Positions 5,412-60,588 are shown, numbered from the stretch's first letter. The stretch is 64,000 nucleotides of DNA from an uncultured Clostridia bacterium (GCA_944393465.1 CALYAG010000003.1:40404-104403); one strand, 5' to 3'. Numbers and translations: made by a program. The notes: a model not told the origin generated them from the letters alone.

Positions 5412-5458
5412 AATTTTACCTCCTTGAATTTTGGGTGGTGCTCTGCCTTTTTTCTGCT

Positions 5459-5629: not shown

Positions 5630-5940
5630 CCAAAAAAGACCCCATCCTTTTAGGACGAAGTCTTTCCGCGGTACCACCTAATTTAAAAGAATTTATATTA
5701 TTTCTTATTCTTTTCTCTCTAATATCTTTAACGCAGATTTACGGCTTAAACTAATAACAACCGCTTTCGTCTAAGCAACATATAAGTGATAATAAATAAA
5801 TAGTTTCTTACTAGCATCTCACCACCACTAGCTCTCTAAAAAGGCTTGTTTATTTACCGTGTCTTATATATAGTTTTTATATATGATATGACTATTTTAC
5901 AACGTTTTATGTAAAAAAGTCAAGGTTTTTCTGTAAATCT
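5630..5940 (-). promoter_or_regulatory. T-box riboswitch leader (tRNA-Ile responsive) controlling ileS
   Basis: The minus strand reads AAATTAGGTGGTACCGCGGAAAG (coords 5666-5684), the conserved T-box antiterminator motif. An AGAGAG / AGUGG stem-I-like segment lies upstream, a candidate TTGACT-N18-TAAAAT promoter near 5925-5895, and a terminator-like hairpin plus U-run at ~5630-5660. Confidence 0.75.
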
Positions 5941-7877: not shown

Positions 7878-7962
7878 TAGATTCCTCCTTTGATTTTTTA
7901 ATTATTTTATTATACTTTAAAATTAGTTGCAAGAGTTTTTTGAATTTTTTCAGTTTGTATTT

Positions 7963-8066
7963 TTTCAGTTGGGGACGGTCCTAAATCGAAAAAGATTTCA
8001 TGTAGTAACGAACTTTAAATAAAAATTATATTTTTTTCGATTTAGGACCGTCCCCAACTGAAAAAA
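7963..8066. repeat. Palindromic dispersed repeat element (family 1)
   Basis: Inverted arms at 7963-7994 and 8033-8066 around a 38-nt loop. Lies between the pgi start and the spoIIP stop. Confidence 0.85.
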
Positions 8067-9359
8067 TTACATCTCTTCAAGTATTCTTGCCAAATACTTC
8101 ATTGCTCCCATACTTTCTTCTAAGGTATTACCAGTTGAGCCAACTTCTATTATGCAGGCTGCTTTTGCAACATGCTGGTTGTATTCTGAGTTTCTTAATA
8201 TTATTGGCTTGAAAAGCCCTGGGTATAATTCATTTGCTTTTTGCTGAACTTTTATTGCAAATTTTAAGTTTTGTAGCCAATTTGTATGTGCTGAGTTTGA
8301 GCCATCGGTTCCCATTACAAACATAAGTTGTGATACATATTCATCACCTATTTTTACTTTTGGAGCATATGTTTCATCTGCTATAGCATCTCTATGTAAG
8401 TCTATAACAATGTCTGTATCAGGGTTTGCACTAAGTATGTTTTGGGCAGTCACAAGTGACCTAGAATATGAGCCGTTGTATGCAGGGTAATCATGGTATG
8501 TTTTATCATGTATGACCGTACAGCCATAACTATTTAAGCAACTTTCTAACACATCGCCTACTCTTGATACAGAAAAATTCAAATCTGTTGTTCTGAAATT
8601 TCCACTTGCCGTGTATTGGTATTGTTCTGTAGGTGTGTAGCTTTCGCAAGTATGTGTGTGATAAATTGCAACTTTGCTTTTGTTTACTTCTACATCTGGT
8701 GTAAGCATTTCTTGAGTTAAAGTGTATTTTGTACTGTTATTAATAAGCACTCCATTATATTCATCTGTATATCTAGGATTTACTCCACTATTATCTACTT
8801 CTGTTACTGTCCAGTCTTTGTTTATGCCTATAGATTGCAATACATCACCATTTTGTGTAGTTAAACCTGAATTTTCTCCATTTGCTGAATTCCCAGCATT
8901 TGATGAAATTTCTTGCCCACCTTCACCTTGACCATTATTTTCATTGTTGCTTGTTTCATTAGATGTTTCATTTGAACTATCTTTTATAGAGTCTAAAACT
9001 TCAAGTTCTGACGAGAAAGCAATTTGCACACTACTAACTTTTGTAGCTTGATCCGTTTGTTTATTTATTGCAATTTGTGGTAACATATCATCTATGCAAA
9101 ATAGCCATGCTTGCGATTTTTTTTCATTTTTCTCGCCATTTATTTCTCCGCCTTCTTCATTATTATTTTCCTCATTGGACTGTGTAACTGTTTTTTCATC
9201 GGTACTATTGCTTAATTCTGCATTTGAATTAACATCAGCACTAGATTTATTCTTTTCTCCAATCTTTAAAAATTTTACAACTAAAGCTACAGCCGTTAGC
9301 ACTATCAAAATCTTTATTAAATATTTAATTAAATCTTTTACTTTGAATACTTTTATCAT
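8067..9359 (-). CDS. spoIIP: Stage II sporulation protein P (SpoIIP-family cell-wall amidase/endopeptidase)
   Basis: 430 aa with an N-terminal TM helix and an N/S/E-rich low-complexity linker. The C-terminal domain carries the AIYHTHT.ESY...DLHRDA motifs characteristic of SpoIIP. Confidence 0.7.
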   Translation of the reverse strand: MIKVFKVKDLIKYLIKILIVLTAVALVVKFLKIGEKNKSSADVNSNAELSNSTDEKTVTQSNEENNNEEGGEINGEKNEKKSQAWLFCIDDMLPQIAINKQTDQATKVSSVQIAFSSELEVLDSIKDSSNETSNETSNNENNGQGEGGQEISSNAGNSANGENSGLTTQNGDVLQSIGINKDWTVTEVDNSGVNPRYTDEYNGVLINNSTKYTLTQEMLTPDVEVNKSKVAIYHTHTCESYTPTEQYQYTASGNFRTTDLNFSVSRVGDVLESCLNSYGCTVIHDKTYHDYPAYNGSYSRSLVTAQNILSANPDTDIVIDLHRDAIADETYAPKVKIGDEYVSQLMFVMGTDGSNSAHTNWLQNLKFAIKVQQKANELYPGLFKPIILRNSEYNQHVAKAACIIEVGSTGNTLEESMGAMKYLARILEEM

Positions 9360-12532: not shown

Positions 12533-13825
12533 TTGAAAGCGAAAAAAATATTAGTATTTATGCTTATAGTTGTTTTAATATTAATAACATTATTCGGAAT
12601 GAATTCTGTAACATCTATGGATAATTTAGCATATGTAGTCGCAGTTGGTTTCGATATTAAAGATACTGGAAAATTAGAGCTTAGCTTTCAGATTGCCCTT
12701 CCATCTGGAAGTGAAGGCGGTTCTTCTGGTTCAAGCTCATCCCAATCTTCTAGCTCTATTGTGACTAGTGTTGAATGTAACTCCTTTGAATCTGGAGTTA
12801 ACTTAGTTAATTCATATTTAAGTAAAGAATTAAATTTATCACATTGCAAAGCAGTAGTATTTTCAGAAGAAATAGCATCACAAGGAATTGGAGAATATTT
12901 ATACACTTTAATTAACCATGTTGAAATAAGACCAACTTGTAATGTAATAATTTCAAAATGCAATGCAAAATATTTTTTGAACAATTCAAGTCCTATGCTA
13001 GAACAACTATCTTCAAAATATTACGAAATTGCTTCTACATCTGAAAGGGTTACTGGATATACTTATAATATAACTTTACTAGACTTTTTCTCAGATTTTG
13101 CTGATTCTTTTACTGAATGTTTTGCTACACTTGGAAGTGTTAATGATGGCGGTATTAGCAGTAGTGGTTCGAATAACAATTCTAGCAATAGTTCCAGTAA
13201 CGGAAGTAATAGTGACCAATCTAGCTCAAGTTTATCAAGTGAAGGTACAGATGATAGTTATGTTGCCTCTGAAACACCTATAGATTCTCAAAAGAATATT
13301 GAAAACTTAGGCTTAGCCGTTTTTAAAGGTGACAAATTAGTTGGTGAGCTAAATGGTGTGGAATGTATCGCTCACTTAATATTAACTAATGAACTAGAAA
13401 ATGCTGTAATTAGTGTTCCTAGTCCCTTTGAAAGCACAAATTATATTGATTTATATCTTACAAATAGCAAATGTAAGTCTAAAGTATATTTGACAAATGG
13501 TACACCATATATAAAACCTAGTATTGATTTAAGTGCACGAATAATTAGTATGTCTGATGATTATAAAGATTTAACTGAAGAAAATATTGAACTTATTGAA
13601 GAATATGCAAAATATTATGTAGAAAGATTTATTTATGATTATTTATATAAAACAGCTAAAGTATTTAAGTCGGATATTACAGCCTTTGGTAAATATGCTG
13701 TTTCAAATTTTGCAACTATTGATGAATGGAATAAATACAACTGGCTAGATAATTACCAAAATTCTTTCTTTAATGTGGATATAAATGTGGATATTGTTTC
13801 TAGATACTTGTTGATTGATACTTGA
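12533..13825 (+). CDS. Spore germination receptor C subunit (GerAC/GerKC lipoprotein) with Ser/Gly/Asn-rich low-complexity inserts
   Basis: 430 aa with a TTG start behind AAAGGAGG, a signal peptide/TM, and the conserved GerxC C-terminal region. Two Ser-rich inserts are present (SGSEGGSSGSSSSQSSSS and GGISSSGSNNNSSNSSSNGSNSDQSSSS). Confidence 0.8.
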   Translation: MKAKKILVFMLIVVLILITLFGMNSVTSMDNLAYVVAVGFDIKDTGKLELSFQIALPSGSEGGSSGSSSSQSSSSIVTSVECNSFESGVNLVNSYLSKELNLSHCKAVVFSEEIASQGIGEYLYTLINHVEIRPTCNVIISKCNAKYFLNNSSPMLEQLSSKYYEIASTSERVTGYTYNITLLDFFSDFADSFTECFATLGSVNDGGISSSGSNNNSSNSSSNGSNSDQSSSSLSSEGTDDSYVASETPIDSQKNIENLGLAVFKGDKLVGELNGVECIAHLILTNELENAVISVPSPFESTNYIDLYLTNSKCKSKVYLTNGTPYIKPSIDLSARIISMSDDYKDLTEENIELIEEYAKYYVERFIYDYLYKTAKVFKSDITAFGKYAVSNFATIDEWNKYNWLDNYQNSFFNVDINVDIVSRYLLIDT

Positions 13826-13964
13826 TTTTTTTCAGTTGGGGACGGTCCTAAATCGAAAATTTTCAGTTGGGGACGGTCCTAAATCGAAAAAATATTATTT
13901 TTGTTTAAATTTCGTTTCTGCTTAAAAATTTTTTTCGATTTAGGACCGTCCCCAACTGAAAATT
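13826..13964. repeat. Palindromic dispersed repeat element (family 1; two direct arms plus one inverted arm)
   Basis: Arms at 13829-13860 and 13861-13893, and an inverted arm at 13931-13964, between the convergent gerKC-like and rnr genes. Confidence 0.85.
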
Positions 13965-15953
13965 TTACACTAATTTAAAATCAATTTTTCTCGTTTGCTT
14001 ATCTGCAAATACAACTTCAATTTTTACTTTTTGTCCAAGTTTGTATACTTTTTTAGTTTCTTTGCCAATTAGTTGTTTATTTAAATCATCATAAATGTAA
14101 TAATCATCATTTATTTCTGCAAGTCTAATTAGCCCTTCTACTGTGTTATCTAATTGTACAAACATTCCCCAACTTGTTATACTTGAAATAATACCATCAT
14201 ATTGTTCGCCAATTTTATCTTGCATATATTCAGCCTTTTTAATATCTTCACTTGCTCTTTCTGCTTTTGTAGCAATTTGCTCACATTCTGAAGAACTTTC
14301 AGCGTATTTTATTGCTTGCTTTTCTAGTTTTGCCTTTGTGTTTTCATCAATTATATCATTTACTGCCTTATTACGCTTAACATTTTTGCCTTTATTCGAT
14401 TCTGTACTCATATACTCTAAGTATTTTGATATAACCCTATGTATAAATAAATCAGGATATCTACGAATTGGTGATGTAAAATGGCAATAATATTTACTTG
14501 AAATACCAAAGTGTCCTTTATTTTCCGCTTCGTACCTTGCAACTTTTAAGGTTCTTAAAAGTAAGTTAGAAACTACCCTTTCTTCATCTTTTCCTTTTAC
14601 ATCTTCTAATATTTGTGAAAATGCTTTTGGTTTTACATCGTCCAATTTTCCTTTTATTCTATATCCAAAATTAAACAAATATTTATTTAATTCTTTTACT
14701 TTATCTTCGTCTGGCTTTTCATGAACTCTATAAATAAAAGGTGCTTCTAGCCAATAAAATCTCTCTGCGACTGTTTCATTTGCTGTTAGCATAAATTGCT
14801 CAATTATTTCATGTGCGAAGTTCGTTTCATAAGGACTTATATCTATTGGCTTGCCATTTTTATCTAAAGTAATTTTGCTTTCTGGTATGTCTAAAGATAA
14901 ATATCCATCTTTTAGTCTTCTTGCTTTTAAAATCAAAGCTAGTTCTTTCATTCTATCAAAATGGGCTATATATGGCTCATATTTTTCTAAAACTTTTTCA
15001 TCGCTTCTTTCAATTATTTTGTATACATCATTGTAATTCATTCTTTTAGTTACTTTAATAATGCTTTTAAAAATATTGCTATCTACAACTTTTCCTTTTG
15101 AATCTATAGTCATTATAACTGAAATAGCATATCTATCTTTGCCTTGATTTAAGCTACAACATCCATTTGACAATTCAGTTGGAAGCATTGGAATAACTCT
15201 ATCTAGCATATACACACTTGTGCCTCTTTTTATTGCCTCTTTATTAAGCAAACTTCCGTCTTGCACATAGTAACTTACATCTGCAATATGTACTCCAAGT
15301 GTATATGTACCATCTTCATTTTTATCTACACAAACTGCATCATCTAGGTCTTTTGCATCTTCTCCATCAATAGTAAAAATTTCTTTATCTCTTAAGTCTA
15401 CTCTTCCTTCTGGCTTTATTTCCTTTTTGCTAACTCTTTTTGCCTCTTCTAAAACTTTTTTAGGAAATTCGCTTTCTAAATTATACTCTTTAATGATTGA
15501 AAGCATGTCCACACCCGTTTCATCTTCATAACCTAAAACTTCAGTAATTTTACCTTCTGCTTTCATTCCTTTTCTAGGATATTTTGTAATTTTTACTACA
15601 ACTTTTTGATGATTTTTGGCTTTTCCAAAATTAGATTTTGATATAAAAATATCTGTTCCAAGAGCGTTGTCATCTGGTATTACAAAACCAAAATTTCTAC
15701 TTTTTTCAAAAGTTCCAACTACTTGTTTTGTGTTTCTTTCTACGACTTGAACAATGGCACCTTCTTTACTGTTGCCACTATTTTCATCTATTATTTTTAC
15801 TTCAACTATGTCACCATTCATAGCATCTTTTTTATTCTTTTTGGCTATGAAAATGTCTGGCTCATCATCCGATATTTTTACAAAGCCGTAGCCACGTTCA
15901 TGGCCAATATATTTTCCTTGTATAAGCTCCATTTGTTTCCTTTCTTTTTTCAA
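13965..15953 (-). CDS. rnr: Ribonuclease R
   Basis: 662 aa with an N-terminal cold-shock/OB region (GYGFV), an RNB catalytic domain and a C-terminal S1 domain. Classic secG-rnr neighbourhood. Confidence 0.9.
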   Translation of the reverse strand: MKKERKQMELIQGKYIGHERGYGFVKISDDEPDIFIAKKNKKDAMNGDIVEVKIIDENSGNSKEGAIVQVVERNTKQVVGTFEKSRNFGFVIPDDNALGTDIFISKSNFGKAKNHQKVVVKITKYPRKGMKAEGKITEVLGYEDETGVDMLSIIKEYNLESEFPKKVLEEAKRVSKKEIKPEGRVDLRDKEIFTIDGEDAKDLDDAVCVDKNEDGTYTLGVHIADVSYYVQDGSLLNKEAIKRGTSVYMLDRVIPMLPTELSNGCCSLNQGKDRYAISVIMTIDSKGKVVDSNIFKSIIKVTKRMNYNDVYKIIERSDEKVLEKYEPYIAHFDRMKELALILKARRLKDGYLSLDIPESKITLDKNGKPIDISPYETNFAHEIIEQFMLTANETVAERFYWLEAPFIYRVHEKPDEDKVKELNKYLFNFGYRIKGKLDDVKPKAFSQILEDVKGKDEERVVSNLLLRTLKVARYEAENKGHFGISSKYYCHFTSPIRRYPDLFIHRVISKYLEYMSTESNKGKNVKRNKAVNDIIDENTKAKLEKQAIKYAESSSECEQIATKAERASEDIKKAEYMQDKIGEQYDGIISSITSWGMFVQLDNTVEGLIRLAEINDDYYIYDDLNKQLIGKETKKVYKLGQKVKIEVVFADKQTRKIDFKLV

Positions 15954-21614: not shown

Positions 21615-21626
21615 TTTATCCTTTCT

Positions 21627-21768
21627 TTTTTCAGTTGGGGACGGTCCTTTTCCGAAAATTTTTTTCAATCGGGGACGGTCCTTTTCCGAAATTTTTTTCA
21701 ATCGGGGACGGCCCTTTTCCGAAAATTTTTTTCGTTTTAGGACCGTCCCCAACTGAAAAAAACTGAAT
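21627..21768. repeat. Palindromic dispersed repeat element (family 1; three degenerate direct arms plus an inverted arm)
   Basis: TTTTCAGTTGGGGACGGTCCTTTTCCGAAA appears three times (21629-21720) and the inverted arm at 21733-21766. It sits in the recD2 5' leader. Confidence 0.85.
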
Positions 21769-33006: not shown

Positions 33007-33086
33007 TAACTTTTCCTCCGTTTATTTCAATTATTCTATTGTATTGTATCATTATTATTTTTAAATTTCCACTATTTTTAAGAAAT

Positions 33087-33120
33087 TTTTTCAGTTGGGG
33101 ACGGTCCTAAATCGAAAAAG
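33087..33120. repeat. Solo (half) copy of the family-1 palindromic repeat arm
   Basis: TTTTCAGTTGGGGACGGTCCTAAATCGAAAAAG with no inverted partner within 700 bp. It directly abuts the GC-rich orphan gene cassette at 33180-33725. Confidence 0.8.
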
Positions 33121-35356: not shown

Positions 35357-35370
35357 AATATTCTCCTCCT

Positions 35371-35588
35371 TTTTTTCAGTTGGGGACGGTCCTAAATCGA
35401 AAATTTTCATTTAAGGTCCGTCCCTGATTGAACTATATTTTCATTATAGCACATCAATCCTACAAAATCTACATTTTGGGAAATTTTTTTCAGTTGGGGA
35501 CGGTCCTAAATCGAAAAAATCTGTCAATATAGTTGTCCCGTTTAACACAATTTATTTTTTCGATTTAGGACCGTCCCCAACTGAAAAA
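35371..35588. repeat. Palindromic dispersed repeat element (family 1, composite: two direct arms, a degenerate arm and an inverted arm)
   Basis: Arms at 35373-35404 and 35487-35519, the inverted arm at 35556-35588, and a degenerate AGGTCCGTCCCTGATTG. It lies in the metG 5' leader / ABC permease 3' end. Confidence 0.85.
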
Positions 35589-35589
35589 G

Positions 35590-38268
35590 TTATATATTAT
35601 CCTTCCTAATTGTTTCAATTATATTTTGCTTATTTATTTTGTTTAGCGAATACTTCATTATTCCTCCAATTAGCAAGAATACTACTATTACAGCTACAAC
35701 TGTTGGCATCACTGGGAATGTGTATTCCATTAAAATTCCTTCTCTAAATGCTAAGTATAAAAAGTATGAACCCAATATTCCAATTGGTACACCTATTATG
35801 ATTGACTTTAGTCCATAGAATATACTTTCTAGTCTAATCATTCTATTGAATTCTTTTTTAGTCATTCCAATTGATTTTAGATTTGCAAATTCTTTGCTTC
35901 TTAAATTCATATTACTTGTTATTGTGTTAAATATGTTTGTTACACCTATTAATGAAATTACTATTATAAATCCATACAAGAATATTGCTATTATTAATAT
36001 TAATGAGTTTTGTCTATCCGCTTCTTCCTGTATGTTTACAGTATAGACATTTTGGTAATTTGCTTTTATATCTTTTTCTAATTCGGATGCGTTATCGGCA
36101 TTTACATATAATGTCCCAAAAATCCAGTCAAATTGATTTATAAATTCATCACTTACTATCATTGTTCCTTGTGTAAAAGATGTTGTTTCTAATCCCATTG
36201 GCTTTTTGGCTGTTTGTGCAATAATTGGTGCTGTAACGTCTTTAACAACTTCTGCATCATTTCCAGATACATCAAAGGTTATTTCGTCGCCTCTATTGTA
36301 ATCATATATTTCTCCAATGTATTTTTTATAGCTTCCGTCTTCATTATAAATATATCTTTCAAAATCATCTATCCAAATTATTTTGTCTTTTGCGTCATCA
36401 TAGTTTAGTCCTAAATCTTTAATATATCTTTGATATTCGTCATCTCCAAGTGCTAGCATTACCACTTGGTAATTTACATCTTCTCCATTTTCTATTGCTT
36501 CTGAATATTGTGATGTTAGGTTTGTTAAATATTCTACACCATCTTTTGATAGTTTTAAATCTTTTGTGCTCATGCTTATAAATAAATGTTTTGTTATTGT
36601 ATATGAATTTACTCTTTCGTCTTGAGCTATTTTTTTATAAGTATTATATGCCCCATTTTTATCTATATTGCTTGCACTTATTGATACTTGCAAATTATAT
36701 TTGTAGTCTGTTAAAGCCTGATTTGATACTGTAAAACTGTATTGCACTAGTGATGTTATTGATATAAATATAGCTATGCTAACTACTAAAGATATTACTG
36801 TTGTACGATATTTTTTTCTGTTTCTTTTCAAATTTTTGTATGCTATATCTCCACCTACACCAAATATTTTTTTAATAATTTTTGGAGATTTTACTTTTTT
36901 GCCTTTTATTTTTATATCTTCATTACTTCTTATTGCATCTATTGGAGATAATTTTGCTGCTCTTCTTGCTGATGCTCTGCAAGAAAAATAGATTGTTATT
37001 ACTGCTAATATTATTGAAAATATTATGGCTGTAATAGGTACTGAATATATAAATGTTACATCATCTATAACCTTTCCAATCAAGTTGTTTAATACTATTG
37101 ATAATATCCAGTTTACTAATATTCCAAGTAATATTCCTGATGGAATTCCTATTAAACCTAGTATTGCGCCTTCAAATAGTACATTTTTCCTTATTTGCTT
37201 TTTGGTTGCTCCTATTGATGATAGCATTCCATATTGCCTTGTTCTTTCGGTTATTGATATTGCAAAACTATTTCTTATAACAAATACACTTGAAATTATT
37301 ATAATAGCTACAACTACAACTCCTACTAAATAGAGCATTCTCATATATGAGTTGTTTACACCAACGCCTTCAAACTGTAATACACTTGTATTTAAACTTA
37401 TATTGTATTTGCTTCCTATATCTTCTTTTGCCATTCCTGTACTTAGTTCCATTATTCCAATGTAGCTATTGGCTTTTTGTTCTTCTGCATTTAGTCCTAA
37501 TATATTACATAATACTTCTTCGTAATTTTTCACACCCTTTTTTGTGAAATTTGCATATATATTAGCTGTACTTCCTAAATTATTCACATCTAAATATGTT
37601 AGAGCTGTGAAACCCGGCGCAGAATATGGCTCTAATGTATAATTAAGTCTTTCCATTATACCGACAATTGTATAAGTTTTTGTATACATAGTTTCTAAAT
37701 ATTCATCTTGTGTGTAAATATCATCTTGTGTAAGTTCTTTTCCGTCTAGTAACCTTTTTGAAATATCTAATGTTAATTTATCTCCTAGTTTTAATGGATT
37801 TTCTGGCTCACTTAATTCTAATTGGTTACCTTCTACTTGCATATAATCATAAATATTTTTACTTATAACTATTTCGTTACTATTGGTTGGAAATCTGCCT
37901 TCTGTTAATTTTATAGGAAGTTTAGTTTGTGCACCATTATCTATACCAACTATATAAAAATATGGTTTATCTTCATTTGTTGACTCATTAAACCTTGCAT
38001 ATCCTATATTTGATGTTAAGAAATAACTGTCTATATTTCTATTTTCTTCTATATATGACAAATCTTCTGTTGGTACATCTTTGAATTCTACCTGAAAGTC
38101 ACCATTATTTTTTATAAAATAGTCTTGTAATGTTGCTTTTCCACTAGTTACCATACCAGCAACAACTGTAATTAATGCTGTTGATAGCAATATGCCTATT
38201 ATTGTAACTAAGGTTCGCTTTTTATTAAGCTTTAGGCTCTTTATGGTTAATTTATTTAAGATTTTCAT
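35590..38268 (-). CDS. ABC transporter permease, FtsX/MacB family (two FtsX 4-TM modules with large extracytoplasmic domains)
   Basis: 892 aa. An N-terminal TM, a large extracellular domain, 4 TM, a second extracellular domain, and 4 TM. Pairs with the upstream ATPase. Confidence 0.85.
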   Translation of the reverse strand: MKILNKLTIKSLKLNKKRTLVTIIGILLSTALITVVAGMVTSGKATLQDYFIKNNGDFQVEFKDVPTEDLSYIEENRNIDSYFLTSNIGYARFNESTNEDKPYFYIVGIDNGAQTKLPIKLTEGRFPTNSNEIVISKNIYDYMQVEGNQLELSEPENPLKLGDKLTLDISKRLLDGKELTQDDIYTQDEYLETMYTKTYTIVGIMERLNYTLEPYSAPGFTALTYLDVNNLGSTANIYANFTKKGVKNYEEVLCNILGLNAEEQKANSYIGIMELSTGMAKEDIGSKYNISLNTSVLQFEGVGVNNSYMRMLYLVGVVVVAIIIISSVFVIRNSFAISITERTRQYGMLSSIGATKKQIRKNVLFEGAILGLIGIPSGILLGILVNWILSIVLNNLIGKVIDDVTFIYSVPITAIIFSIILAVITIYFSCRASARRAAKLSPIDAIRSNEDIKIKGKKVKSPKIIKKIFGVGGDIAYKNLKRNRKKYRTTVISLVVSIAIFISITSLVQYSFTVSNQALTDYKYNLQVSISASNIDKNGAYNTYKKIAQDERVNSYTITKHLFISMSTKDLKLSKDGVEYLTNLTSQYSEAIENGEDVNYQVVMLALGDDEYQRYIKDLGLNYDDAKDKIIWIDDFERYIYNEDGSYKKYIGEIYDYNRGDEITFDVSGNDAEVVKDVTAPIIAQTAKKPMGLETTSFTQGTMIVSDEFINQFDWIFGTLYVNADNASELEKDIKANYQNVYTVNIQEEADRQNSLILIIAIFLYGFIIVISLIGVTNIFNTITSNMNLRSKEFANLKSIGMTKKEFNRMIRLESIFYGLKSIIIGVPIGILGSYFLYLAFREGILMEYTFPVMPTVVAVIVVFLLIGGIMKYSLNKINKQNIIETIRKDNI

Positions 38269-44872: not shown

Positions 44873-45189
44873 ATTTTATATCCTTTCCTAGGGCTTGTAA
44901 AATTCCCTATTATTATATTTCTAGATTAGTTTAAAATTTCCTTTGTTTGGTGCTTTATATTATTTAATTTATGTATGTAATTCTAAGATTACTAACATAT
45001 TATATATACTTTTGTAAAATATATCAACCTTTTTAGTAGAAAAAGCTAAATATCGTTTTTGCTATTTTACTATTTACAGCAGTATAAAACTGCAGTTTTA
45101 CTATGTAACAAAAAGTTAGAGATATTGTTATAAAAATCATCTCCAACTTTTTATTTTACTCCGTTTATTTAGTTCGTTTTTTAATTTAT

Positions 45190-45255
45190 TTTTTCAGTTG
45201 GGGACGGTCCTTTTTCGAAAATTTTCGTTTTAGGACCGTCCCCAAACGTAAAAAT
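45190..45255. repeat. Palindromic dispersed repeat element (family 1, compact form with a ~10-nt loop)
   Basis: TTTTTTCAGTTGGGGACGGTCCTTTTTCGAAAATTTTCGTTTTAGGACCGTCCCCAAACGTAAAAA, just upstream of the tig start. Confidence 0.85.
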
Positions 45256-45257
45256 TT

Positions 45258-48934: not shown

Positions 48935-49921
48935 TTAGAGTTTCAAGTTTGGTACCGCATTTAATGTTAAGTCATCTATTTTTCCATTTATGTAGTTATA
49001 ATACCCTGCTGAAGCTATCATTGCAGCATTATCTGTGCAAAGTTTTAAGTCTGGCATATAAACTTTTATTCCTTGGCTTTGCAAATTTTCAAACTCACTT
49101 CTTATATATGTATTTGCTGAAACTCCACCAGCTAGTACTATTTTATTTGCATTTGTTTTTTCTACTGCTAGTTTTACTTTTTCCATTAACATATCTGTTA
49201 CCGCTTTTTCAAAACTTGCACACAAGTTTTCCTTATTTATATCTGGTTCTTTATGATGAAGATTTATTACTGCTGTTTTAATGCCACTAAAACTAAAATC
49301 TAGGCCATCAACATGTGTTTTTGGTAATTCTATATTAGGTACGCCATTTACTGCCATTTTGTCTATTTTAGGGCCTCCTGGATAGCCTAGTTCAATTACT
49401 CTTGCTACTTTATCAAAAGCTTCACCTATTGCATCATCTTTTGTTCTGCCTAACACTTCAAAATTTAAATAGTCTTTTACATGTACTATTTGTGTATTTC
49501 CACCAGACATCATTATACATAAAAATGGTGGCTCTAAGTCAGGATAAGTTATGTAATTAGCTGCAATGTGTCCTTGTATGTGGTTTACTCCAACTAAAGG
49601 CTTTTTTAGAGCATAGCTTAAAGCTTTACCATAGGAAAGTCCTACAAGTAAAGCTCCAACTAAGCCCGGTCCATATGTGCAGGCTACTGCATTTATTTGA
49701 TTTAAGTCTATTTTAGCATCTTGTACTGCTTTTTTTGTTACATCAGATATATTGTCTATGTGATTTCTTGAAGCAATTTCAGGTACAACACCGCCATACA
49801 CAGTGTGTATTGGTATTTGAGTGTTTATTACATTAGATAAAACTATTCTGCCGTTTTTTACTACTGAAACTGCTGTTTCATCACAACTAGATTCTATACC
49901 TAATATGTATATGTCCTCCAT
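48935..49921 (-). CDS. tsaD: tRNA N6-adenosine threonylcarbamoyltransferase
   Basis: 328 aa. N-terminus ILGIESSCDETAVSVV and the conserved His pair (NHIQGH) of Kae1/TsaD. Confidence 0.9.
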   Translation of the reverse strand: MEDIYILGIESSCDETAVSVVKNGRIVLSNVINTQIPIHTVYGGVVPEIASRNHIDNISDVTKKAVQDAKIDLNQINAVACTYGPGLVGALLVGLSYGKALSYALKKPLVGVNHIQGHIAANYITYPDLEPPFLCIMMSGGNTQIVHVKDYLNFEVLGRTKDDAIGEAFDKVARVIELGYPGGPKIDKMAVNGVPNIELPKTHVDGLDFSFSGIKTAVINLHHKEPDINKENLCASFEKAVTDMLMEKVKLAVEKTNANKIVLAGGVSANTYIRSEFENLQSQGIKVYMPDLKLCTDNAAMIASAGYYNYINGKIDDLTLNAVPNLKL

Positions 49922-50007
49922 TTTATTGTCCTTTCATAATTACATTTATTCAGTATGTATTCGTTTGCTTTTCAAAAATAAATTATATATGCGTTAATTT
50001 ATATTTA

Positions 50008-50757
50008 TTAAACTAGCATTCCCACAATCGAAGCGATTAGATTTAACAATCCATTATTTATTAGTCTAATAACTGGGCTAATTATTAAAGAAGCTATTGG
50101 TGTAATCCATATAATTATGAATACTAAATATAATATTCTTTCGTGCGATTCAAACCAACTTCTTGCATTTGTTGGAAGTATTGCTACTAACACCTTTGAA
50201 CCGTCTAGTGGTGGTAATGGTATTAGGTTAAATACTCCTAATCCTACATTCATAAATATAGTGTACATAATTATATCTGTTATAATACCCCCAACTTGAG
50301 AATTAATAAATGCTATTCCACCAAATGCCAGTATTAAAGCATAAATAATGCTAAAAATAAGTGCTAAAATCAAATTCATAACTGGTCCTGCTAAAGCAAC
50401 CAATGCATTTCCTTTTCTTATGGTAATTGTTCTATTAAAGTTGTTTGGGTTTATTTCAACTGGTCTACCCCATCCAAATCCTGCAAATAAAAGCATTAGC
50501 ATTCCTATTGGTTCCATATGTTTAAATGGATTTAGTGTTAGTCTTCCTTGCCTTCTTGGAGTGTCATCTCCAAGTCTATCTGCCATCCACGCGTGCGCAA
50601 ACTCGTGAAATGTCATTGCTATAATAACTCCAGGAATGCTTAAAATTAATGCAAGTAATGCTTCAGGTGAGTATATGTAATACCTTAAGTTTTCAGCTAT
50701 TAGGATGATTACTAAAACTATCATCCAAGTATTCATTCCAAATCCTCCAAAAAACAT
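50008..50757 (-). CDS. Site-2 protease family (M50) membrane metalloprotease
   Basis: About 245 aa and polytopic. The HEFAH zinc motif (MTFHEFAHAWMADRLGD) and a later LDG motif are present. The start is uncertain (M1, M8 or M12). Confidence 0.75.
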   Translation of the reverse strand: MFFGGFGMNTWMIVLVIILIAENLRYYIYSPEALLALILSIPGVIIAMTFHEFAHAWMADRLGDDTPRRQGRLTLNPFKHMEPIGMLMLLFAGFGWGRPVEINPNNFNRTITIRKGNALVALAGPVMNLILALIFSIIYALILAFGGIAFINSQVGGIITDIIMYTIFMNVGLGVFNLIPLPPLDGSKVLVAILPTNARSWFESHERILYLVFIIIWITPIASLIISPVIRLINNGLLNLIASIVGMLV

Positions 50758-50841: not shown

Positions 50842-52323
50842 CTAGTTCAATGGCTTCATTGTAGGGAATAGCAATATATCTCTAATTGATGCTGAGTTTG
50901 TAAGAAGCATTATTAGTCTATCTAATCCTATTCCTAATCCTCCTGTTGGTGGAAGTCCTATTTCTAGTGCATTTACAAAGTCTTCATCCATCATGCCCGC
51001 TTCTTCATCACCATTTGCTCTAGCTTCTGCTTGTTTCTTTAATCTTTCATATTGATCTATTGGGTCATTTAATTCTGAATAAGCATTTCCGTATTCTCTA
51101 CCACCAATAAATACTTCAAATCTTTCTGTTAAACTTGGATTGTCTTTTTTTCTCTTTGTAAGTGGAGATACTTCAACTGGATAGTCCATTATAAATGTTG
51201 GCTGAATTAGTGTTTCTTCAACAAAAGTTTCAAAGAATTCGTTTATAATGTGACCTCTTGTTGTTTTGCCTTCTTCTAATTCTACGCCTTTTTCATCTGC
51301 TAGTTTTCTTGCTTCTTCATCATTTTTAACTTCATTAAAGTCTATTCCTGTTTTTTCTTTGATTGCATCTATCATAGTGATTCTTTTCCAAGGTGTAGAT
51401 AAGTCTAAATCTAGTCCTTGATAATTTATCTTCAAAGTTCCATTTACTTTCATGCATAATCTTGTAATTATTTCTTCTGTAATATCCATCATATCATTGT
51501 AATCTTCATAAGCTGCATATAACTCAACATTTGTAAATTCAGGATTATGCTTTATATCCATTCCTTCATTTCTAAAGTTTTTGCATACTTCATATACTTT
51601 GTCAAAACCACCAACTATTAGCCTTTTTAGGTTAAGCTCTGGTGCAATTCTTAAGTACATATCTAAATCTAATGTGTTATGATGTGTTTTAAATGGTCTT
51701 GCTGCATCACCAGTAATTAGGTTATTTAAAATTGGTGTTTCAACTTCTAAGTAACCTTTTTCATCAAGTATATTTCTTAATTCTTTGATGATCATACTTC
51801 TTTTAATAAAAGTATCTCTAACTTCTGGATTTACTATTAAATCTACATATCTTTGTCTATATCTTAAATCTGTATCTTTTAGACCATGGAATTTTTCTGG
51901 TAATGGCTTTAAAGATTTTGTAAGTAATGTAACCTCTTTTGCATGGATAGATATTTCACCTGTACGTGTTTTAAATACAAAACCTGTTATTCCTATAATG
52001 TCTCCAATATCATCTTCTTTGAATTGTTTGTAACTTTCTTCTCCTAAATCATTTATACTAACATAACTTTGGATTTTTCCCTCTCCATCTTGAATATGAC
52101 AAAAAGAGGCCTTACCCATTATTCTTTTAGCCATTAATCTTCCTGCTATTGTTACGTCTTTGCCTTCTAATTCATCATAATTATCTATAACTTGTTTTGT
52201 TGTATGTGTTCTATTGAACTTTGTTATTTGAAATGGGTCTTTGCCTTCTGCTCTTAATTTGTCTAGCTTTTCTCTTCTAACTTGCATTAAATGATCCATA
52301 TCTAATTCTTGATTTTCTTCCAT
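50842..52323 (-). CDS. lysS: Lysine--tRNA ligase (class II)
   Basis: N-terminal OB anticodon-binding domain and class II motifs 1-3 (GGxEx...). The start is placed at the ATG at 52323 (MEENQELD...) behind GAAAGGCAGG. The track's upstream Met codons lack an RBS. Candidate promoter TTTACA-N17-TATAAT at 52431-52403. Confidence 0.9.
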
Positions 52324-52539
52324 ATTGTCCTGCCTTTCTATACTAAAAACTTGCATAAATCTCATAGTTTTTATGTACTCTCTTTTTCTCAATTATGCTA
52401 ATATTATACCTTATATTCCACTTTTTGTAAACCTTTTTTTAAGAAAAGTGGCTTCGCCACATGTGATGCGAGCTTTGCTCGGGCTGCCTAAGGTAACTTT
52501 ATCTTGAAATATAGGCAAAATCTTCAATTTTTCCTATAT

Positions 52540-52850
52540 TATAACAAAAAGACCCCTCAAAAGAGGGGTCTTCCAAAGTCTCTGTACGAATTTGCTATTG
52601 CAAAAACGAAATAAGGCAAGTGGTCCTGTAGCAGCTACATATAGCGCGCGGACGGCCAACAATTGTGGCAAAACTGGAAAATGTGCCCGAGACTTTGTAA
52701 TGCTTATACATTTTTGCTTTTGCAACACTTGGAGGTAAGTAAAGTACGGACTAGGAGTAATACTTGCTTTATTTCACATGGGGAAACCAACAAGTTTATA
52801 TTCTCCAATTATGCAAAAATGTATTTGAAGTCGAATAAACGACCAGCACT
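52540..52850 (-). ncRNA. Candidate ~310-nt structured ncRNA of unknown class (GC-rich core, perfect sigma-A promoter, strong terminator)
   Basis: On the minus strand: TTGACA(52885-52880)-N17-TGaTATAAT(52862-52857). The GC-rich body runs ~52780-52570 and a 10-bp-stem terminator (AAGACCCCTCTTTTGAGGGGTCTT plus a U-run) lies at 52573-52543. A second hairpin terminator, GTGGCGAAGCCAC plus a U-run, sits at 52460-52441. No convincing RBS-preceded ORF. Confidence 0.4.
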
Positions 52851-53045
52851 GGAGATATTATATCACTTGTTTTAATTTATGTCAACATCTTTTGTCCATT
52901 CATTTTTATTAATTTTAAATAGCTTTTTCTTGGTAACTAGAAATTACTTTTTCTAAATAGAATTAACCTTTACAGTTAGCCTCAATTTTAACTATTTCTT
53001 ACTTATTTTTATTTTCACTAATTATTAAACTTTTCAAATAATATT

Positions 53046-54665
53046 TTATGCTGATTTTCTAAGTTCCATTGCGTGCATTCTTGCAGTCTCAGTTATTTCT
53101 CCATTTGAAATTCTGGCAACTTCGTTTATAACCTCTTCTTCATTTAATTTTTTTACTTGTGTAAATGTTCTACCTTCTTTTGATATTTTACTTATATAGA
53201 AGTTTTCATCACCTTTGGCAGCAATGCTTGGTTGATGTGTAATGCATAATACTTGGTAGCTTTTTCCTATTAGTTTTAACTTTTCTCCTACAGATTTTGC
53301 AGCTTTTCCACTAATTCCTGTATCTATTTCGTCAAAGATTAATACTGGTGTACTATCTGTATTTGCTAAAACTGTTTTTATTGCTAGCATTATTCTCGAC
53401 ATTTCACCACCAGATGCTATTTTGGCAAGTTCTTTTTCATTTTCGCCTATATTTGTTGAAATGTAGTATTCTACCTCGTCTGTACCATTTTTGTTAAATT
53501 CTACTTGATTTATGTGTGTTATAAATTTGCTATTTGGCATCTCTAAGTCGGCTAACTCTTTATTTATTTTGCTATCTAACACTTTAGCATTAGTTACTCT
53601 TATTTCATGCATTTTATCTGCTAAATTTTGCATTTTTGTTTCTACTCGTTTAAGTTCTTGCTTTAATTTGTTATTGTATTCATCTAAATTATTTATTCTA
53701 TCTATTTCTTTTTCTATTTTGTCTTTGTATTCTAGTATTTCTTCTACAGTATTTCCATATTTTCTTTTTAAAGAGTAGATTAAGTCAAGTCTTTCTTCTA
53801 CTTCATTTCTTTCGTTCTCATCAAAATACATATCTGAATTAAGTGATGATATATCTCTTGAAAGTTCTTGTACTTCATAATAAATGCTCTTTAAATTATT
53901 TAATGTGTCTTCATATTTTTTATCTAAATCACTTATTTTTTCTATGGCCCTAATTGCCTCATTAATTTTATCTATTGCACCTTCGCCAAGTGATAAATCT
54001 GCTTGATTTAGGCTTTTGCCTATTTTTTCTGAATTCATGAAAAACTTTCTTTTTTCTTCTAGTTCTTCTTCTTCACCTAGCTTTAATTCGGCATTTTCTA
54101 TTTCATCAAATTCATATTGAAGTAAGCTTAGTTGTCTTTGCTTTTCTTTGTCATCACCTAAATTAACTTTTAGCTCTTTTTTTATATCTTGTCTTTTGTT
54201 ATATAAATCTTTATACTCATTTTTTATTTGAAGTAAGTCATTGCCAATAAAATTATCTAAATATTTAATGTGATACTTTGGATTAAGTATTTTTTGATTA
54301 TCGTTCTGACCATGTATGTCTATTATGTTACTCATGAACTCTTTAAGTTCTGTTAAGGTAACTAATCTACCATTTATTTTACAAGAATTTTTGCCATTTG
54401 AATGGATTTCTCTACTGACTATTATATTATTTTCTATTGCTAAGTCATTGTTTGGAAGATATAAATTAAGCTCAACAAAAGAATAGGTTTCACCCCTTCT
54501 TATCATTTCTTTTGAAAATCTACCTCCACATATTATACTAATAGAGTCTATTATTAAAGTTTTACCTGCGCCTGTTTCACCAGTAAGCACGTTAAAGCCT
54601 TCTCCTAGCTCTATGCTTAAATCATCTATTATTCCTATATTTTTAATATGTAGAGTTGTTATCAT
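53046..54665 (-). CDS. recN: DNA repair protein RecN
   Basis: 539 aa with an N-terminal SMC-like Walker A (GETGAGKT), a long coiled coil and a C-terminal signature/Walker B (LIFDEIDTGISG). Confidence 0.85.
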   Translation of the reverse strand: MITTLHIKNIGIIDDLSIELGEGFNVLTGETGAGKTLIIDSISIICGGRFSKEMIRRGETYSFVELNLYLPNNDLAIENNIIVSREIHSNGKNSCKINGRLVTLTELKEFMSNIIDIHGQNDNQKILNPKYHIKYLDNFIGNDLLQIKNEYKDLYNKRQDIKKELKVNLGDDKEKQRQLSLLQYEFDEIENAELKLGEEEELEEKRKFFMNSEKIGKSLNQADLSLGEGAIDKINEAIRAIEKISDLDKKYEDTLNNLKSIYYEVQELSRDISSLNSDMYFDENERNEVEERLDLIYSLKRKYGNTVEEILEYKDKIEKEIDRINNLDEYNNKLKQELKRVETKMQNLADKMHEIRVTNAKVLDSKINKELADLEMPNSKFITHINQVEFNKNGTDEVEYYISTNIGENEKELAKIASGGEMSRIMLAIKTVLANTDSTPVLIFDEIDTGISGKAAKSVGEKLKLIGKSYQVLCITHQPSIAAKGDENFYISKISKEGRTFTQVKKLNEEEVINEVARISNGEITETARMHAMELRKSA

Positions 54666-54821
54666 TATTTATTCCTCCTAACATTTTGTCTAAATGCGTA
54701 GTTTACTTAATTTGCGTGTTTCTTATTTTAATATGCCATTCTTAATAAAGTCACCTGAACTTTTGTTCGTATATATTATACATACATTTGTTTGCTATGT
54801 CAAGAGGTTTTTAAAATTTTT

Positions 54822-54920
54822 TGTCAAATGGGACGGTTCTAAATTACACTGATTTGTGTCATTTAGAACCGTCCCATTTGAAATTTTTTCATTTTAGAAC
54901 CGTCACAAACTGAAAAAATT
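54822..54920. repeat. Palindromic dispersed repeat element, variant family 2 (GGGACGGTTCTAAAT arms)
   Basis: CAAATGGGACGGTTCTAAATT...ATTTAGAACCGTCCCATTTGA plus a third arm TTTAGAACCGTCACAAACTGAAAA. Related to family 1 but diverged. Sits between rplQ and recN. Confidence 0.75.
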
Positions 54921-60310: not shown

Positions 60311-60328
60311 ACTTTTCTTCCTTTCTTT

Positions 60329-60494
60329 TTCAGCTGGGGACGGTCCTAAAATGAAAATTTAATTTTTTATTTAAATCACGTCCCAAATTATAAATTTTCG
60401 TTTTAGGACCGTCCCCAACTGAAAAATTTATTTTTTATTTAAATCACGTCCCAAATTATAAATTTTCGTTTTAGGACCGTCCCCAACTGAAAAT
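60329..60494. repeat. Palindromic dispersed repeat element (family 1) tandemly duplicated at the secY-adk junction
   Basis: Two ~80-bp units in direct tandem: CAGCTGGGGACGGTCCTAAAATGAAAA...CACGTCCCAAATTATAAATTTTCGTTTTAGGACCGTCCCCAACTGAAAA. The second copy is near-identical (60409-60494). Confidence 0.85.
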
Positions 60495-60588
60495 TCTCGT
60501 GTTTTTAGCCGTATATATTTTAGTACTTTTTTTATTATTTGTCAATAAAAATGAACTTTAGGATTTGCCCCAAAGTTCAAATTATAGT

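What the first reader, a model, noticed from the sequence alone, without database searches (positions are those of the whole stretch)
52440..52890. GC-rich ~310-nt transcription unit with a textbook promoter and terminator and no convincing ORF: candidate abundant structured ncRNA upstream of lysS
On the minus strand there is a perfect TTGACA-N17-TGnTATAAT promoter (52885-52857). The body is far more GC-rich (~45%) than the flanks and full of local hairpins (GTGGTCCTGTAGCAGCTAC, GCGCGCGGACGGCC). A 10-bp GC-stem terminator with a U-tract closes it at 52573-52543, followed by a second terminator and then the separate lysS promoter.

The only ORFs are short, lack an RBS and have odd composition. 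The architecture is typical of housekeeping ncRNAs such as 6S RNA, or of sRNAs. I could not match it by eye to SRP, tmRNA, RNase P, T-box or lysine-riboswitch signatures, so the class is open.

A minor alternative is a 30-codon peptide (TTG start after GGAGA at ~52795) of type-I-toxin-like composition.
Basis: partly seen in the sequence, partly recalled or inferred. Interest (0 to 1): 0.6.

Follow-up and report, generated by a model that had tools for sequence, protein, structure and literature searches.

The report
Novel structured small RNA beside recN
A real non-coding RNA gene of about 190-310 nt, with its own strong promoter and terminator, sits just after the DNA-repair gene recN in one narrow group of uncultured gut Clostridia; compensatory mutations preserve its fold, it matches no catalogued RNA family, and its function is still unknown (most likely regulatory).

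Summary
On the minus strand there is a 12/12 TTGACA-17-TGnTATAAT promoter (52885-52857), a GC-enriched body of about 305 nt, an 11-bp terminator with a U-tract (52573-52546), then a second terminator-like hairpin and a separate lysS promoter.

RecN-based look-ups recovered nine distinct variants of the same unit (192-311 nt), and all nine lie directly 3' of recN. They share a consensus promoter, a three-way junction (P1, P1a with an invariant UUAU loop, and a long P2), a second domain (P3/P4) and a terminator. Covariation is strong: 93% of cells are paired, against 81% in shuffles. 26 of 42 pairs change on both sides, against 15 in shuffles and 4-9 in slid controls.

No ORF is conserved, and no Rfam family matches any variant. 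The linkage is to recN rather than lysS, and the element is absent from sister lineages and other genera.

Verdict: a genuine, undescribed, genus-restricted structured sRNA family. Its function is inferred only. The best guess is a trans-acting riboregulator that displays an accessible anti-Shine-Dalgarno-like ACCUCC motif. A structure-dependent protein-binding role is nearly as likely.

The parts
52857..52885 (-). Sigma-70-type promoter: TTGACA, 17-nt spacer, TG-extended TATAAT.
   Evidence: One search gives 12/12 with TG. TTGACA is kept in all nine variants, with a TATAAT -10 in eight and TAAAAT in L127.
52546..52850 (-). Predicted transcript of about 305 nt. The start is inferred 7 nt after the -10, at the first base of helix P1. 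The 3' end lies in the U-tract.
   Evidence: The start and end are inferred, not measured.
52845..52850 (-). P1 5' strand, AGUGCU. It pairs with 52699-52704.
   Evidence: Recovered by RNAalifold on an unguided alignment. 96% canonical, with compensatory changes at 3 of 6 pairs.
52829..52844 (-). P1a hairpin, GGUCGU-UUAU-UCGACU. The UUAU loop (52835-52838) is invariant.
   Evidence: All 6 pairs show compensatory changes across the nine variants. The loop is invariant.
52813..52824 (-). P2 basal helix, 5' strand. It pairs with 52706-52717.
   Evidence: 12 bp in the window copy. 11 of 12 pairs change on both sides in A4. 95% canonical.
52718..52812 (-). P2 apex, a hypervariable expansion segment. 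It contains the non-conserved 34-codon ORF.
   Evidence: Its length and sequence differ in every variant, 39-95 nt.
52728..52736 (-). Conserved ACCUCCAAG motif, anti-Shine-Dalgarno-like, in a hairpin loop of the P2 apex.
   Evidence: CUUACCUCCAAGU is identical in W, L104 and L107 although the surrounding apices are unrelated. CCUCC-type motifs occur in the others. Predicted unpaired probability is mostly 0.6-1.0 for the CCUCC core in 7 of 9 variants.
52699..52717 (-). P2 3' strand, one A, then the P1 3' strand (AGCAUU). This begins the most conserved junction, GCAYWACAAAG.
   Evidence: Invariant columns G, C, A, A, C, A, A in A2 and A4.
52689..52697 (-). P3 5' strand, CAAAGUCUC. It pairs with 52574-52582.
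   Evidence: 100% canonical in nine variants, with compensatory changes at 3 pairs.
52614..52688 (-). Lineage-specific GC-rich inserted sub-domain (GGGCA...UGCCU).
   Evidence: Present only in W and L104. L001 has a different insert. L107, L111, L114, L120, L124 and L127 have GGGGAGA and no insert.
52591..52604 (-). P4 hairpin, UUUGC-AAUA-GCAAA.
   Evidence: Present in all variants, 87% canonical. The loop is ARUA in most.
52574..52582 (-). P3 3' strand, GAGACUUUG. It abuts the terminator directly.
52546..52573 (-). Intrinsic terminator: an 11-bp stem, a UUUU loop and a U-tract. It probably also ends recN transcripts.
   Evidence: 99% canonical with compensatory changes. No terminator-like site lies between the recN stop (53046) and this one.
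53046..54665 (-). recN (539 aa, SMC_N/AAA_23), the gene every variant of the RNA follows.
52403..52431 (-). Separate lysS promoter, TTTACA-17-TATAAT. It is not part of the RNA unit.
   Evidence: It is conserved in L003/L004, which lack the RNA.

Best explanation
**What it is (shown).** This is an independent gene for a structured non-coding RNA.
- It is about 305 nt in this window and 192-311 nt (-10 to U-tract) across nine variants.
- It is transcribed from a near-perfect sigma-70 promoter, and the predicted start coincides with the first base of helix P1.
- It ends at a strong intrinsic terminator that abuts helix P3.
- The conserved scaffold has a 5' three-way junction: P1, P1a with an invariant UUAU loop, and a long P2.
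- A 3' domain follows: P3 enclosing P4, with a purine-rich GGGGAGA / AAAAG internal loop in most variants.
- Expansion segments are tolerated at the P2 apex and in the P3/P4 loop.

**How it works (inferred).** It most likely acts in trans as a riboregulator. The scaffold presents an accessible pyrimidine-rich ACCUCC(A/U)AG loop that looks like the 3' end of 16S rRNA. That loop would pair with Shine-Dalgarno regions of target mRNAs and block translation initiation, as the C-rich regions of RoxS/RsaE do.

**Link to recN (inferred).** recN has no terminator of its own. SOS-induced recN transcripts should therefore also carry this RNA as a 3' extension.
For: **Transcription signals.** Promoter 12/12 with TG, plus a terminator. 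TTGACA and an intrinsic terminator are kept in all nine variants, with a consensus TATAAT -10 in eight and TAAAAT in L127.

**Folding.** All nine variants fold on their own into the same architecture. Folding z-scores are -5.4 and -6.4.

**Covariation.**
- RNAalifold on an unguided MAFFT alignment recovers P1, P1a, P2, P3 and the terminator. 23 of 42 pairs carry compensatory changes.
- On 11 sequences, 93.1% of cells are paired against 81.0% in shuffles (0/500).
- 26 of 42 pairs change on both sides, against 15.2 in shuffles (0/500) and 4-9 in slid controls.
- By helix, 87-100% of pairs are canonical.

**Non-coding.** No ORF is conserved, and indels are not in multiples of three.

**Motif.** The 13-nt CUUACCUCCAAGU is identical in three variants whose surrounding apices are unrelated. 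CCUCC-type motifs occur in the others. The CCUCC core is predicted mostly unpaired (0.6-1.0 per base) in 7 of 9 variants.

**Precedent.** C-rich regions of RoxS/RsaE pair with ribosome-binding sites (PMC5419742, PMC6158497, PMC8216469; located, abstracts only read).

**recN read-through.** No terminator-like site lies between the recN stop and the RNA terminator. In L111 the -35 starts 2 nt after the recN stop.
Against: **No expression data.** No transcript has been observed. Promoter strength and abundance are inferred from sequence.

**The base-pairing mechanism is weakly supported.**
- No target is known.
- The extended complement ACUUGGAGGUAAG has no match in the 64-kb window apart from the gene itself.
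- In L120 the pyrimidine stretch (CCUUCUC) is predicted to be mostly paired, and in L127 it is only partly accessible.
- A bare CCUCC would pair with almost any SD and gives no specificity.

**The conservation pattern fits another model equally well.** A multi-helix scaffold with invariant loop and junction nucleotides is more typical of protein-binding or otherwise structure-dependent RNAs than of simple base-pairing sRNAs.

**Limits of the data.** The family is narrow (RecN at least 85% identical) and patchy at this locus. The sequences are closely related, so the shuffle statistics overstate independence.
Confidence: 0.4

Rival explanations
1. It is a structure-dependent ribonucleoprotein or housekeeping-type RNA. 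The conserved scaffold would be a binding platform for one or more proteins, used for sequestration, scaffolding or an unknown activity. The relevant features are the P1/P1a/P2 junction, the invariant UUAU loop, the GCAYWACAAAG junction and the purine-rich P3/P4 internal loop. Base-pairing to mRNAs would be secondary or absent.
For: Multi-helix architecture is kept by compensatory changes while loop and junction nucleotides stay invariant. Expansion segments are tolerated at defined peripheral sites, as in RNase P, tmRNA and SRP RNAs. The promoter is of constitutive consensus type. The GGGGAGA loop is predicted to be accessible.
Against: The phyletic range is very narrow and the RNA is absent at this locus in sister lineages, which argues against an essential housekeeping role. 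No partner protein gene is consistently adjacent other than recN. The GGGGAGA loop is replaced in W, L104 and L001. No known protein-binding motif was recognised; the K-turn check failed by inspection.
Confidence: 0.3
2. It is a cis-acting element rather than a trans-acting RNA. One version is a structured 3' UTR and terminator module that stabilises or terminates recN mRNA. The other is an upstream promoter plus attenuator leader that feeds regulated read-through into lysS.
For: It always lies immediately 3' of recN with no intervening terminator. lysS is the next gene in seven of the nine variants (window/L082 type, L001, L104, L107, L114, L124, L127); it is a MucBP gene in L111 and unresolved in L120, where the contig ends. 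tRNA-synthetase genes are often controlled by leader RNAs, and a true T-box precedes ileS in this same window.
Against: It has its own consensus promoter in every variant, which a 3' UTR does not need. P3 and the terminator are adjacent and do not overlap, so no antiterminator alternative is evident. The T-box and lysine-riboswitch models do not match, although the T-box model scores 111 bits elsewhere in the window. lysS keeps its own promoter, which is also present in relatives lacking the RNA. In L111 the downstream gene is a MucBP adhesin with about 150 nt of spacer.
Confidence: 0.12
3. It is non-functional or selfish DNA: a lineage-specific insertion, for example a remnant of a mobile element. 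Its promoter-like and terminator-like ends and hairpins would have no cellular role.
For: It is absent from the recN-lysS spacer of the nearest outgroups, where recN is followed directly by the lysS promoter. Its interior is hypervariable. The neighbourhood carries other insertions and repeats.
Against: It is single-copy in the window, and no copies occur elsewhere in the 130 fetched loci apart from the post-recN position. It is not found in viral contigs. Neutral sequence would not keep six helices by compensatory change across lineages in which recN DNA differs by 5% or more and RecN protein by up to 15%. Nor would it keep a TTGACA -35 in all nine variants and a consensus -10 in eight.
Confidence: 0.06
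4. It is an mRNA for a small peptide, such as the 30/34-codon type-I-toxin-like ORF proposed by the first reader.
For: A TTG-initiated ORF follows GGAGA at 52704-52808.
Against: That segment is deleted or replaced in every other variant. No ORF of 20 codons or more is shared. The substitution pattern is compensatory in stems, not codon-like. The peptide carries charged residues inside its hydrophobic stretch.
Confidence: 0.03

Closest known systems
RoxS / RsaE (Rfam RsaE family): C-rich base-pairing sRNAs of Bacillota
   Same: It is a stand-alone sRNA gene in a low-GC Gram-positive, ending in an intrinsic terminator. It exposes a pyrimidine-rich motif complementary to Shine-Dalgarno sequences. 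This is the mechanism I propose by analogy (PMC5419742, PMC6158497, PMC8216469).
   Different: There is no sequence or covariance-model similarity. RoxS/RsaE are about 100-115 nt with several CCCC/UCCC motifs and are conserved across Bacillota. This RNA is 190-310 nt, has two covarying multi-helix domains and one ACCUCC-type motif, and is confined to one genus-level clade.
Staphylococcus aureus RNAIII (from my own knowledge of the literature)
   Same: Both are large, highly structured regulatory RNAs of many hairpins. In RNAIII, C-rich hairpin loops pair with the ribosome-binding sites of targets.
   Different: RNAIII is 514 nt, encodes delta-haemolysin and is driven by the agr quorum-sensing promoter. 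Here there is no ORF and no agr context, and the promoter looks constitutive.
6S RNA (ssrS)
   Same: Both are abundant-looking small RNAs with a strong promoter, about 200 nt in the short variants.
   Different: 6S is a single rod closed by 5'/3' end pairing, with a large central bubble. Here the 5' end pairs with the middle of the RNA (P1) and a second domain follows. The Rfam 6S models give no hit.
3'-UTR-associated sRNAs with their own promoter, such as DapZ or MicL in enterobacteria (from my own knowledge)
   Same: The RNA lies immediately after a protein gene that lacks its own terminator and shares the terminator with that mRNA. It could therefore arise both from its own promoter and from read-through or processing.
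   Different: The promoter here lies after the stop codon rather than inside the coding sequence. No processing evidence exists. Those examples are Hfq-dependent proteobacterial RNAs.
T-box leader RNAs upstream of aminoacyl-tRNA synthetase genes
   Same: It sits upstream of an aaRS gene (lysS), is 200-300 nt long, is structured and ends in a terminator.
   Different: It has no T-box sequence, no specifier-loop architecture and no competing antiterminator. lysS has its own promoter. The Rfam T-box model finds the genuine ileS T-box in this window (111 bits) but not this element.

Membership tests
Any Rfam 15 family | A covariance-model match at or near the gathering score. | tested here: not met
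   There is no hit in the region at gathering threshold. At E up to 10 only terminator-driven sub-threshold matches appear, 15-29 bits against thresholds of 39-141. None of the eight other variants has a hit on the RNA at E up to 5.
6S RNA | A rod-like fold closed by pairing of the 5' and 3' ends, with a large central bubble. | tested here: not met
   The covariation-supported P1 pairs the 5' end with the middle of the RNA. A separate P3/P4 domain and the terminator follow.
T-box riboswitch | A conserved T-box sequence and antiterminator that competes with the terminator, plus Stem I with a specifier loop. | tested here: not met
   The Rfam T-box model gives no hit here, although it scores 111 bits at 5648-5880. 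P3 and the terminator are adjacent and do not overlap. The AAG next to CCUCC is not conserved as a Lys codon: it is AAU in L001 and UAG in L114.
Lysine riboswitch, SRP RNA, RNase P RNA, tmRNA | The family-specific conserved cores, as encoded in the Rfam models and ARAGORN. | tested here: not met
   There are no cmscan hits, and ARAGORN finds nothing in the window. The P4-like AAAGUC..GACUUU resemblance to RNase P is not conserved, for example AAAUUUUC in L111.
Type I toxin mRNA or small-protein gene | A conserved short ORF with an RBS, typically a hydrophobic peptide. | tested here: not met
   The candidate ORF lies in a non-conserved segment, and no ORF is shared among variants.
C-rich base-pairing sRNAs of Bacillota (RoxS/RsaE-like, by mechanism and not by homology) | An accessible, conserved pyrimidine-rich motif complementary to SD sequences. 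| tested here: met
   The ACCUCC(A/U)AG-type motif is conserved. Its core is predicted mostly unpaired (0.6-1.0 per base) in 7 of 9 variants.
C-rich base-pairing sRNAs of Bacillota (RoxS/RsaE-like, by mechanism and not by homology) | Demonstrated mRNA targets paired at their ribosome-binding sites. | not testable with these tools
   Only 64 kb of the genome is available. No extended complement was found in it. This needs the whole genome plus an interactome or genetics.
C-rich base-pairing sRNAs of Bacillota (RoxS/RsaE-like, by mechanism and not by homology) | Sequence or structure homology to RsaE/RoxS. | tested here: not met
   There is no RsaE hit in cmscan.
Independent sRNA gene | Its own promoter and terminator conserved across relatives. 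| tested here: met
   TTGACA with a 16-17-nt spacer and a terminator are found in 9 of 9 variants, with a TATAAT -10 in eight and TAAAAT in L127.
Independent sRNA gene | A discrete transcript is detected. | not testable with these tools
   No expression data are available.

The most novel reading that the evidence does not exclude
The RNA would be an abundant mimic of the 3' end of 16S rRNA. Its exposed ACCUCC loop, held on a conserved scaffold, would titrate Shine-Dalgarno sequences, or a factor that recognises the anti-SD. That would make it a global modulator of translation initiation rather than a gene-specific sRNA. Its dose would rise during the SOS response, because LexA-controlled recN transcripts read through into it. 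This would be a previously undescribed link between DNA damage and translation.
Probability: 0.07. Interest if true: 0.7.

Novelty: new member of a known kind. Interest (0 to 1): 0.4.

Why it matters
This adds a well-supported, previously uncatalogued structured RNA family from uncultured, small-genome gut Clostridia, a group with essentially no experimental RNA biology.

Four features make it a clean candidate for metatranscriptomic validation and for asking what a strongly expressed RNA does in these organisms:
- a near-perfect promoter;
- a fold preserved by many compensatory changes;
- defined sites that tolerate large expansion segments;
- a conserved anti-SD-like loop.

Practically, it shows that the recN-lysS spacer in these genomes is not empty. 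It also shows that recN probably shares its terminator with an RNA gene.

It does not overturn any concept. New genus-restricted sRNA families are found regularly.

Tried and rejected
**Known RNA families**
- Rfam at gathering and at permissive E-values, on the window and on eight other variants, gave nothing real.
- ARAGORN found no tRNA or tmRNA.

**Searches for copies elsewhere**
- A phage similarity search found no match.
- Four viral-contig pattern scans were run. Two early ones gave only chance seeds and two structure-aware ones gave nothing.
It showed that relatives with LysS at most 91% identical have no such element near lysS.
- The single metagenome scan used a degenerate P1/P3/terminator pattern. 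It gave one true hit (an L107-type copy in the same context) and one chance hit inside an ORF.
- An nhmmer profile found no copies outside the post-recN position, and none elsewhere in the window.

**Covariance model**
- A 115-position 'core' model (R1) was built from trimmed sequences. It found nothing below E = 3 in 658 kb of relatives.
- R1 performs poorly on long-insert variants, including the window copy, so it was not used for pair counts.

**Structural and mechanistic ideas**
- A pseudoknot between CCUCC and GGGGAGA was rejected. W, L104 and L001 lose GGGGAGA but keep CCUCC, so there is no covariation.
- A K-turn in the P3/P4 loop was rejected, because no conserved GA lies next to the helix on the partner strand.
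- An antiterminator alternative was rejected, because P3 and the terminator do not overlap.
- An RNase P P4-like resemblance was rejected as not conserved.
- A CsrA sponge was rejected. Each variant has only about 3 GGA motifs, which is uninformative.
- A mini-ORF after GGGGAGA was rejected as not conserved.
- Opposite-strand ORFs share only the conserved DNA.
- The extended target search in the window found only the gene itself.

**Side check**
- The 493-aa gene upstream of recN in L120 is not lysS.

Full report
**1. Observation**

- **Promoter.** The consensus scan reports TTGACA-17-TATAAT at 52885-52857, 12/12 with TG before the -10. It is the best site in the region.
- **Terminators and lysS promoter.** There are two terminator-like hairpins (52566-52553 and 52460-52448; 2 found against 0.6 expected). 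A second promoter, TTTACA-17-TATAAT at 52431-52403 (11/12), precedes lysS.
- **Composition.** GC reaches 0.42-0.47 in the 150-nt windows spanning 52550-52774, against 0.22-0.32 around it.
- **Folding.** The 310-nt minus-strand RNA folds at -93.5 kcal/mol, z = -5.4. The opposite strand gives z = -3.9.
- **ORFs.** Only short ORFs are present.

**2. Known families**

- Rfam 15 at gathering thresholds finds one element in the whole window, a T-box at 5648-5880.
- A permissive scan of 52300-53060 returns only sub-threshold matches. They are driven by the terminator hairpin.
- ARAGORN finds no tRNA or tmRNA.
- There is no similarity to deposited phage records.

**3. Relatives**

*LysS route.*
- Identical LysS is encoded on one other contig, L001. 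Its lysS and recN DNA are 95-96% identical to the window.
- L001 keeps the promoter, the first 50 nt or so, a central junction and the terminator. The interior is replaced and shorter.
- In one genome per GTDB species, the 80 closest LysS loci (at most 91% identity) have nothing similar.
- In the nearest of these, L003/L004, the recN stop is followed directly by the lysS promoter.

*RecN route.*
- A RecN homology search gave a ladder of RecN alleles from 80 to 100% identity.
- Looking up their contigs gave nine distinct versions of the unit: window/L082-84, L001, L104-106, L107-110, L111-113, L114-117, L120, L124 and L127.
- The versions measure 192-311 nt from the -10 to the U-tract.
- Each one starts between 2 and about 160 nt after the recN stop.
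- Each has TTGACA, a 16-17-nt spacer and a TATAAT -10 (TAAAAT in L127), most with TG. Each ends in a terminator of about 11 bp.

*Gene context.*
- The gene upstream of recN varies: rplQ, a DUF2207 gene, or an unrelated 493-aa gene.
- The downstream gene is lysS in seven of the nine. It is a MucBP adhesin in L111 and is not resolved in L120, where the contig ends.
- The constant neighbour is therefore recN, not lysS.

*Absences.*
- The unit is missing after recN in lineages where an ABC transporter follows (L118/119 and L128-130; RecN 89-91%).
- It is also missing in the 81% lineage (L121-123).

*Wider searches.*
It found one further L107-type copy in the same context and one chance match.
- Viral contigs have none.
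- An nhmmer profile and a trimmed covariance model find no other copy in the window or in about 650 kb of relatives.

**4. Structure**

All nine variants fold on their own into the same plan. From 5' to 3':
- P1 closes a three-way junction. The predicted start site coincides with its first base.
- P1a follows, a 5-7-bp hairpin with an invariant UUAU loop.
- P2 is a long helix with a hypervariable apex.
- After one or two nucleotides comes P3, which encloses hairpin P4.
- The terminator stacks directly on P3.

Support from alignments:
- RNAalifold on an unguided MAFFT alignment recovers P1, P1a, P2, P3 and the terminator. 23 of 42 pairs carry compensatory changes.
- On 11 sequences, 93.1% of cells are paired against 81.0% in column shuffles (0/500).
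- 26 of 42 pairs change on both sides, against 15.2 in shuffles (0/500).
- Sliding the partners by 1-3 columns gives 38-50% paired and 4-9 such pairs.
- My block alignment gives canonical pairing of 96% (P1), 94% (P1a), 95% (P2), 100% (P3), 87% (P4) and 99% (terminator). Nearly every P1a and P2 pair shows a compensatory change.

The sequences are related, so the shuffle test overstates independence. The slid control does not share that weakness and is equally clear.

**5. What is conserved and what is not**

Invariant or nearly invariant:
- the UUAU loop;
- the junction GCAYWACAAAG;
- the UUUGG at the P3/terminator boundary;
- the P4 hairpin.

Two accessible motifs recur.
- **ACCUCC(A/U)AG in the P2 apex.** CUUACCUCCAAGU is identical in W, L104 and L107 although their apices are otherwise unrelated. 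Its CCUCC core is predicted mostly unpaired (0.6-1.0 per base) in 7 of 9 variants.
- **GGGGAGA in the P3/P4 internal loop.** It occurs in six variants.

The window copy is the largest. It also has a 75-nt GC-rich sub-domain (52614-52688) that replaces GGGGAGA. These two segments produce the GC bump and the named hairpins. They are the least conserved parts.

**6. Interpretation**

*Shown.* This is a conserved, independently promoted and terminated, non-coding, structured RNA family with no Rfam match. It is restricted to a genus-level clade of uncultured gut Clostridia and is syntenic with recN.

*Inferred.*
- Expression is high, judging from the consensus promoter.
- The 5' end is protected by P1.
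- recN transcripts end at the RNA's terminator, because no terminator-like site intervenes.
- The recN promoter carries a Cheo-type LexA box, CGAACAAAAGTTC, at 54769-54757. DNA damage should therefore add read-through copies.

*Mechanism.* I commit, at low confidence, to a trans-acting riboregulator. It would use the exposed anti-SD-like loop to pair with ribosome-binding sites, by analogy with the C-rich regions of RoxS/RsaE (papers located).

*Arguments against that mechanism.*
- No extended target lies in the 64 kb available.
- The motif is predicted mostly paired in L120 and only partly accessible in L127.
- The degree of scaffold conservation would suit a protein-binding RNA at least as well. 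I rate that rival almost as high.

*Other rivals.*
- Cis-regulatory readings (a recN 3' UTR module or a lysS attenuator) fit poorly. The unit has its own promoter and a non-competing terminator, lysS has an independent promoter, and L111 has a different downstream gene.
- A peptide gene is effectively excluded, and neutral junk is unlikely.

**7. Comparison with known systems and novelty**

- By mechanism, it most resembles C-rich base-pairing sRNAs of Bacillota and, in size and structure, RNAIII-like regulators.
- By position, it resembles 3'-UTR-associated sRNAs that have their own promoter.
- It is not a member of the 6S, T-box, lysine-riboswitch, SRP, RNase P, tmRNA or RsaE families. In each case the defining features were tested and not met.
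- It is a new family of a known kind. Interest is moderate.

Noticed in passing
window 5648-5880 (-), with ileS at 2655-5411 (-): A genuine T-box leader (Rfam RF00230, 111 bits) lies upstream of isoleucyl-tRNA synthetase. About 237 nt separate the T-box from the ileS start, and that gap contains a copy of the palindromic repeat described in the next item (5458-5621).
   Followed up: partly
window 54754-54881; further copies near 1431-1543, 5458-5621, 7948-8068, 13818-13991, 21626-21762, 33083-33119, 35370-35599, 45180-45257 and 60326-60495; also L001:1704-1890: A dispersed intergenic repeat family with 10 or more copies in 64 kb. It is built on a palindrome of about 35 bp (AAATGGGACGGTTCTAAAT...ATTTAGAACCGTCCCATTT), so it looks REP- or MITE-like. 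Permissive Rfam scans pick up the corresponding repeats in relatives' loci as spurious miRNA-precursor hits.
   Followed up: partly
window 54757-54803 (-): The recN promoter is TTGACA-17-TATAAT at 54803-54775. A Cheo-type LexA box, CGAACAAAAGTTC (54769-54757), follows it immediately. This is consistent with SOS control of recN and, by read-through, of the downstream RNA.
   Followed up: no
window about 52444-52541 (-): An insertion of about 97 nt lies between the RNA terminator and the lysS promoter. It is absent from L104, and L001 has only a short unrelated spacer at that position. It carries the 'second terminator' (GTGGCGAAGCCAC plus Us) and small GAGCAAAGCTC-type hairpins. Similar GNNNAAAGNNNC-type hairpins fill the lysS upstream region of L025.
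   Followed up: partly
L118:4120-4416 and L128:4120-4407: In lineages lacking the RNA after recN, the spacer instead holds an AT-rich region with a GGAGGGGAG...CUCCCC terminator-like hairpin ahead of an ABC-transporter operon. Whether the RNA has moved elsewhere in those genomes is unknown.
   Followed up: no
L006 about 2590-2650 (upstream of lysS): There are two tandem copies of TTGACAAAAATCTCCGTCCC(C/T)A between recN and lysS in a more distant relative. They are unrelated to the RNA family.
   Followed up: no
L001 5762-9482 compared with window 48935-50757: The gene content downstream of lysS differs between two contigs that encode identical LysS. L001 has ParA/ParB and a SpaA-domain protein; the window has an M50 peptidase and tsaD. 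This indicates rearrangement or island insertion just after lysS.
   Followed up: no
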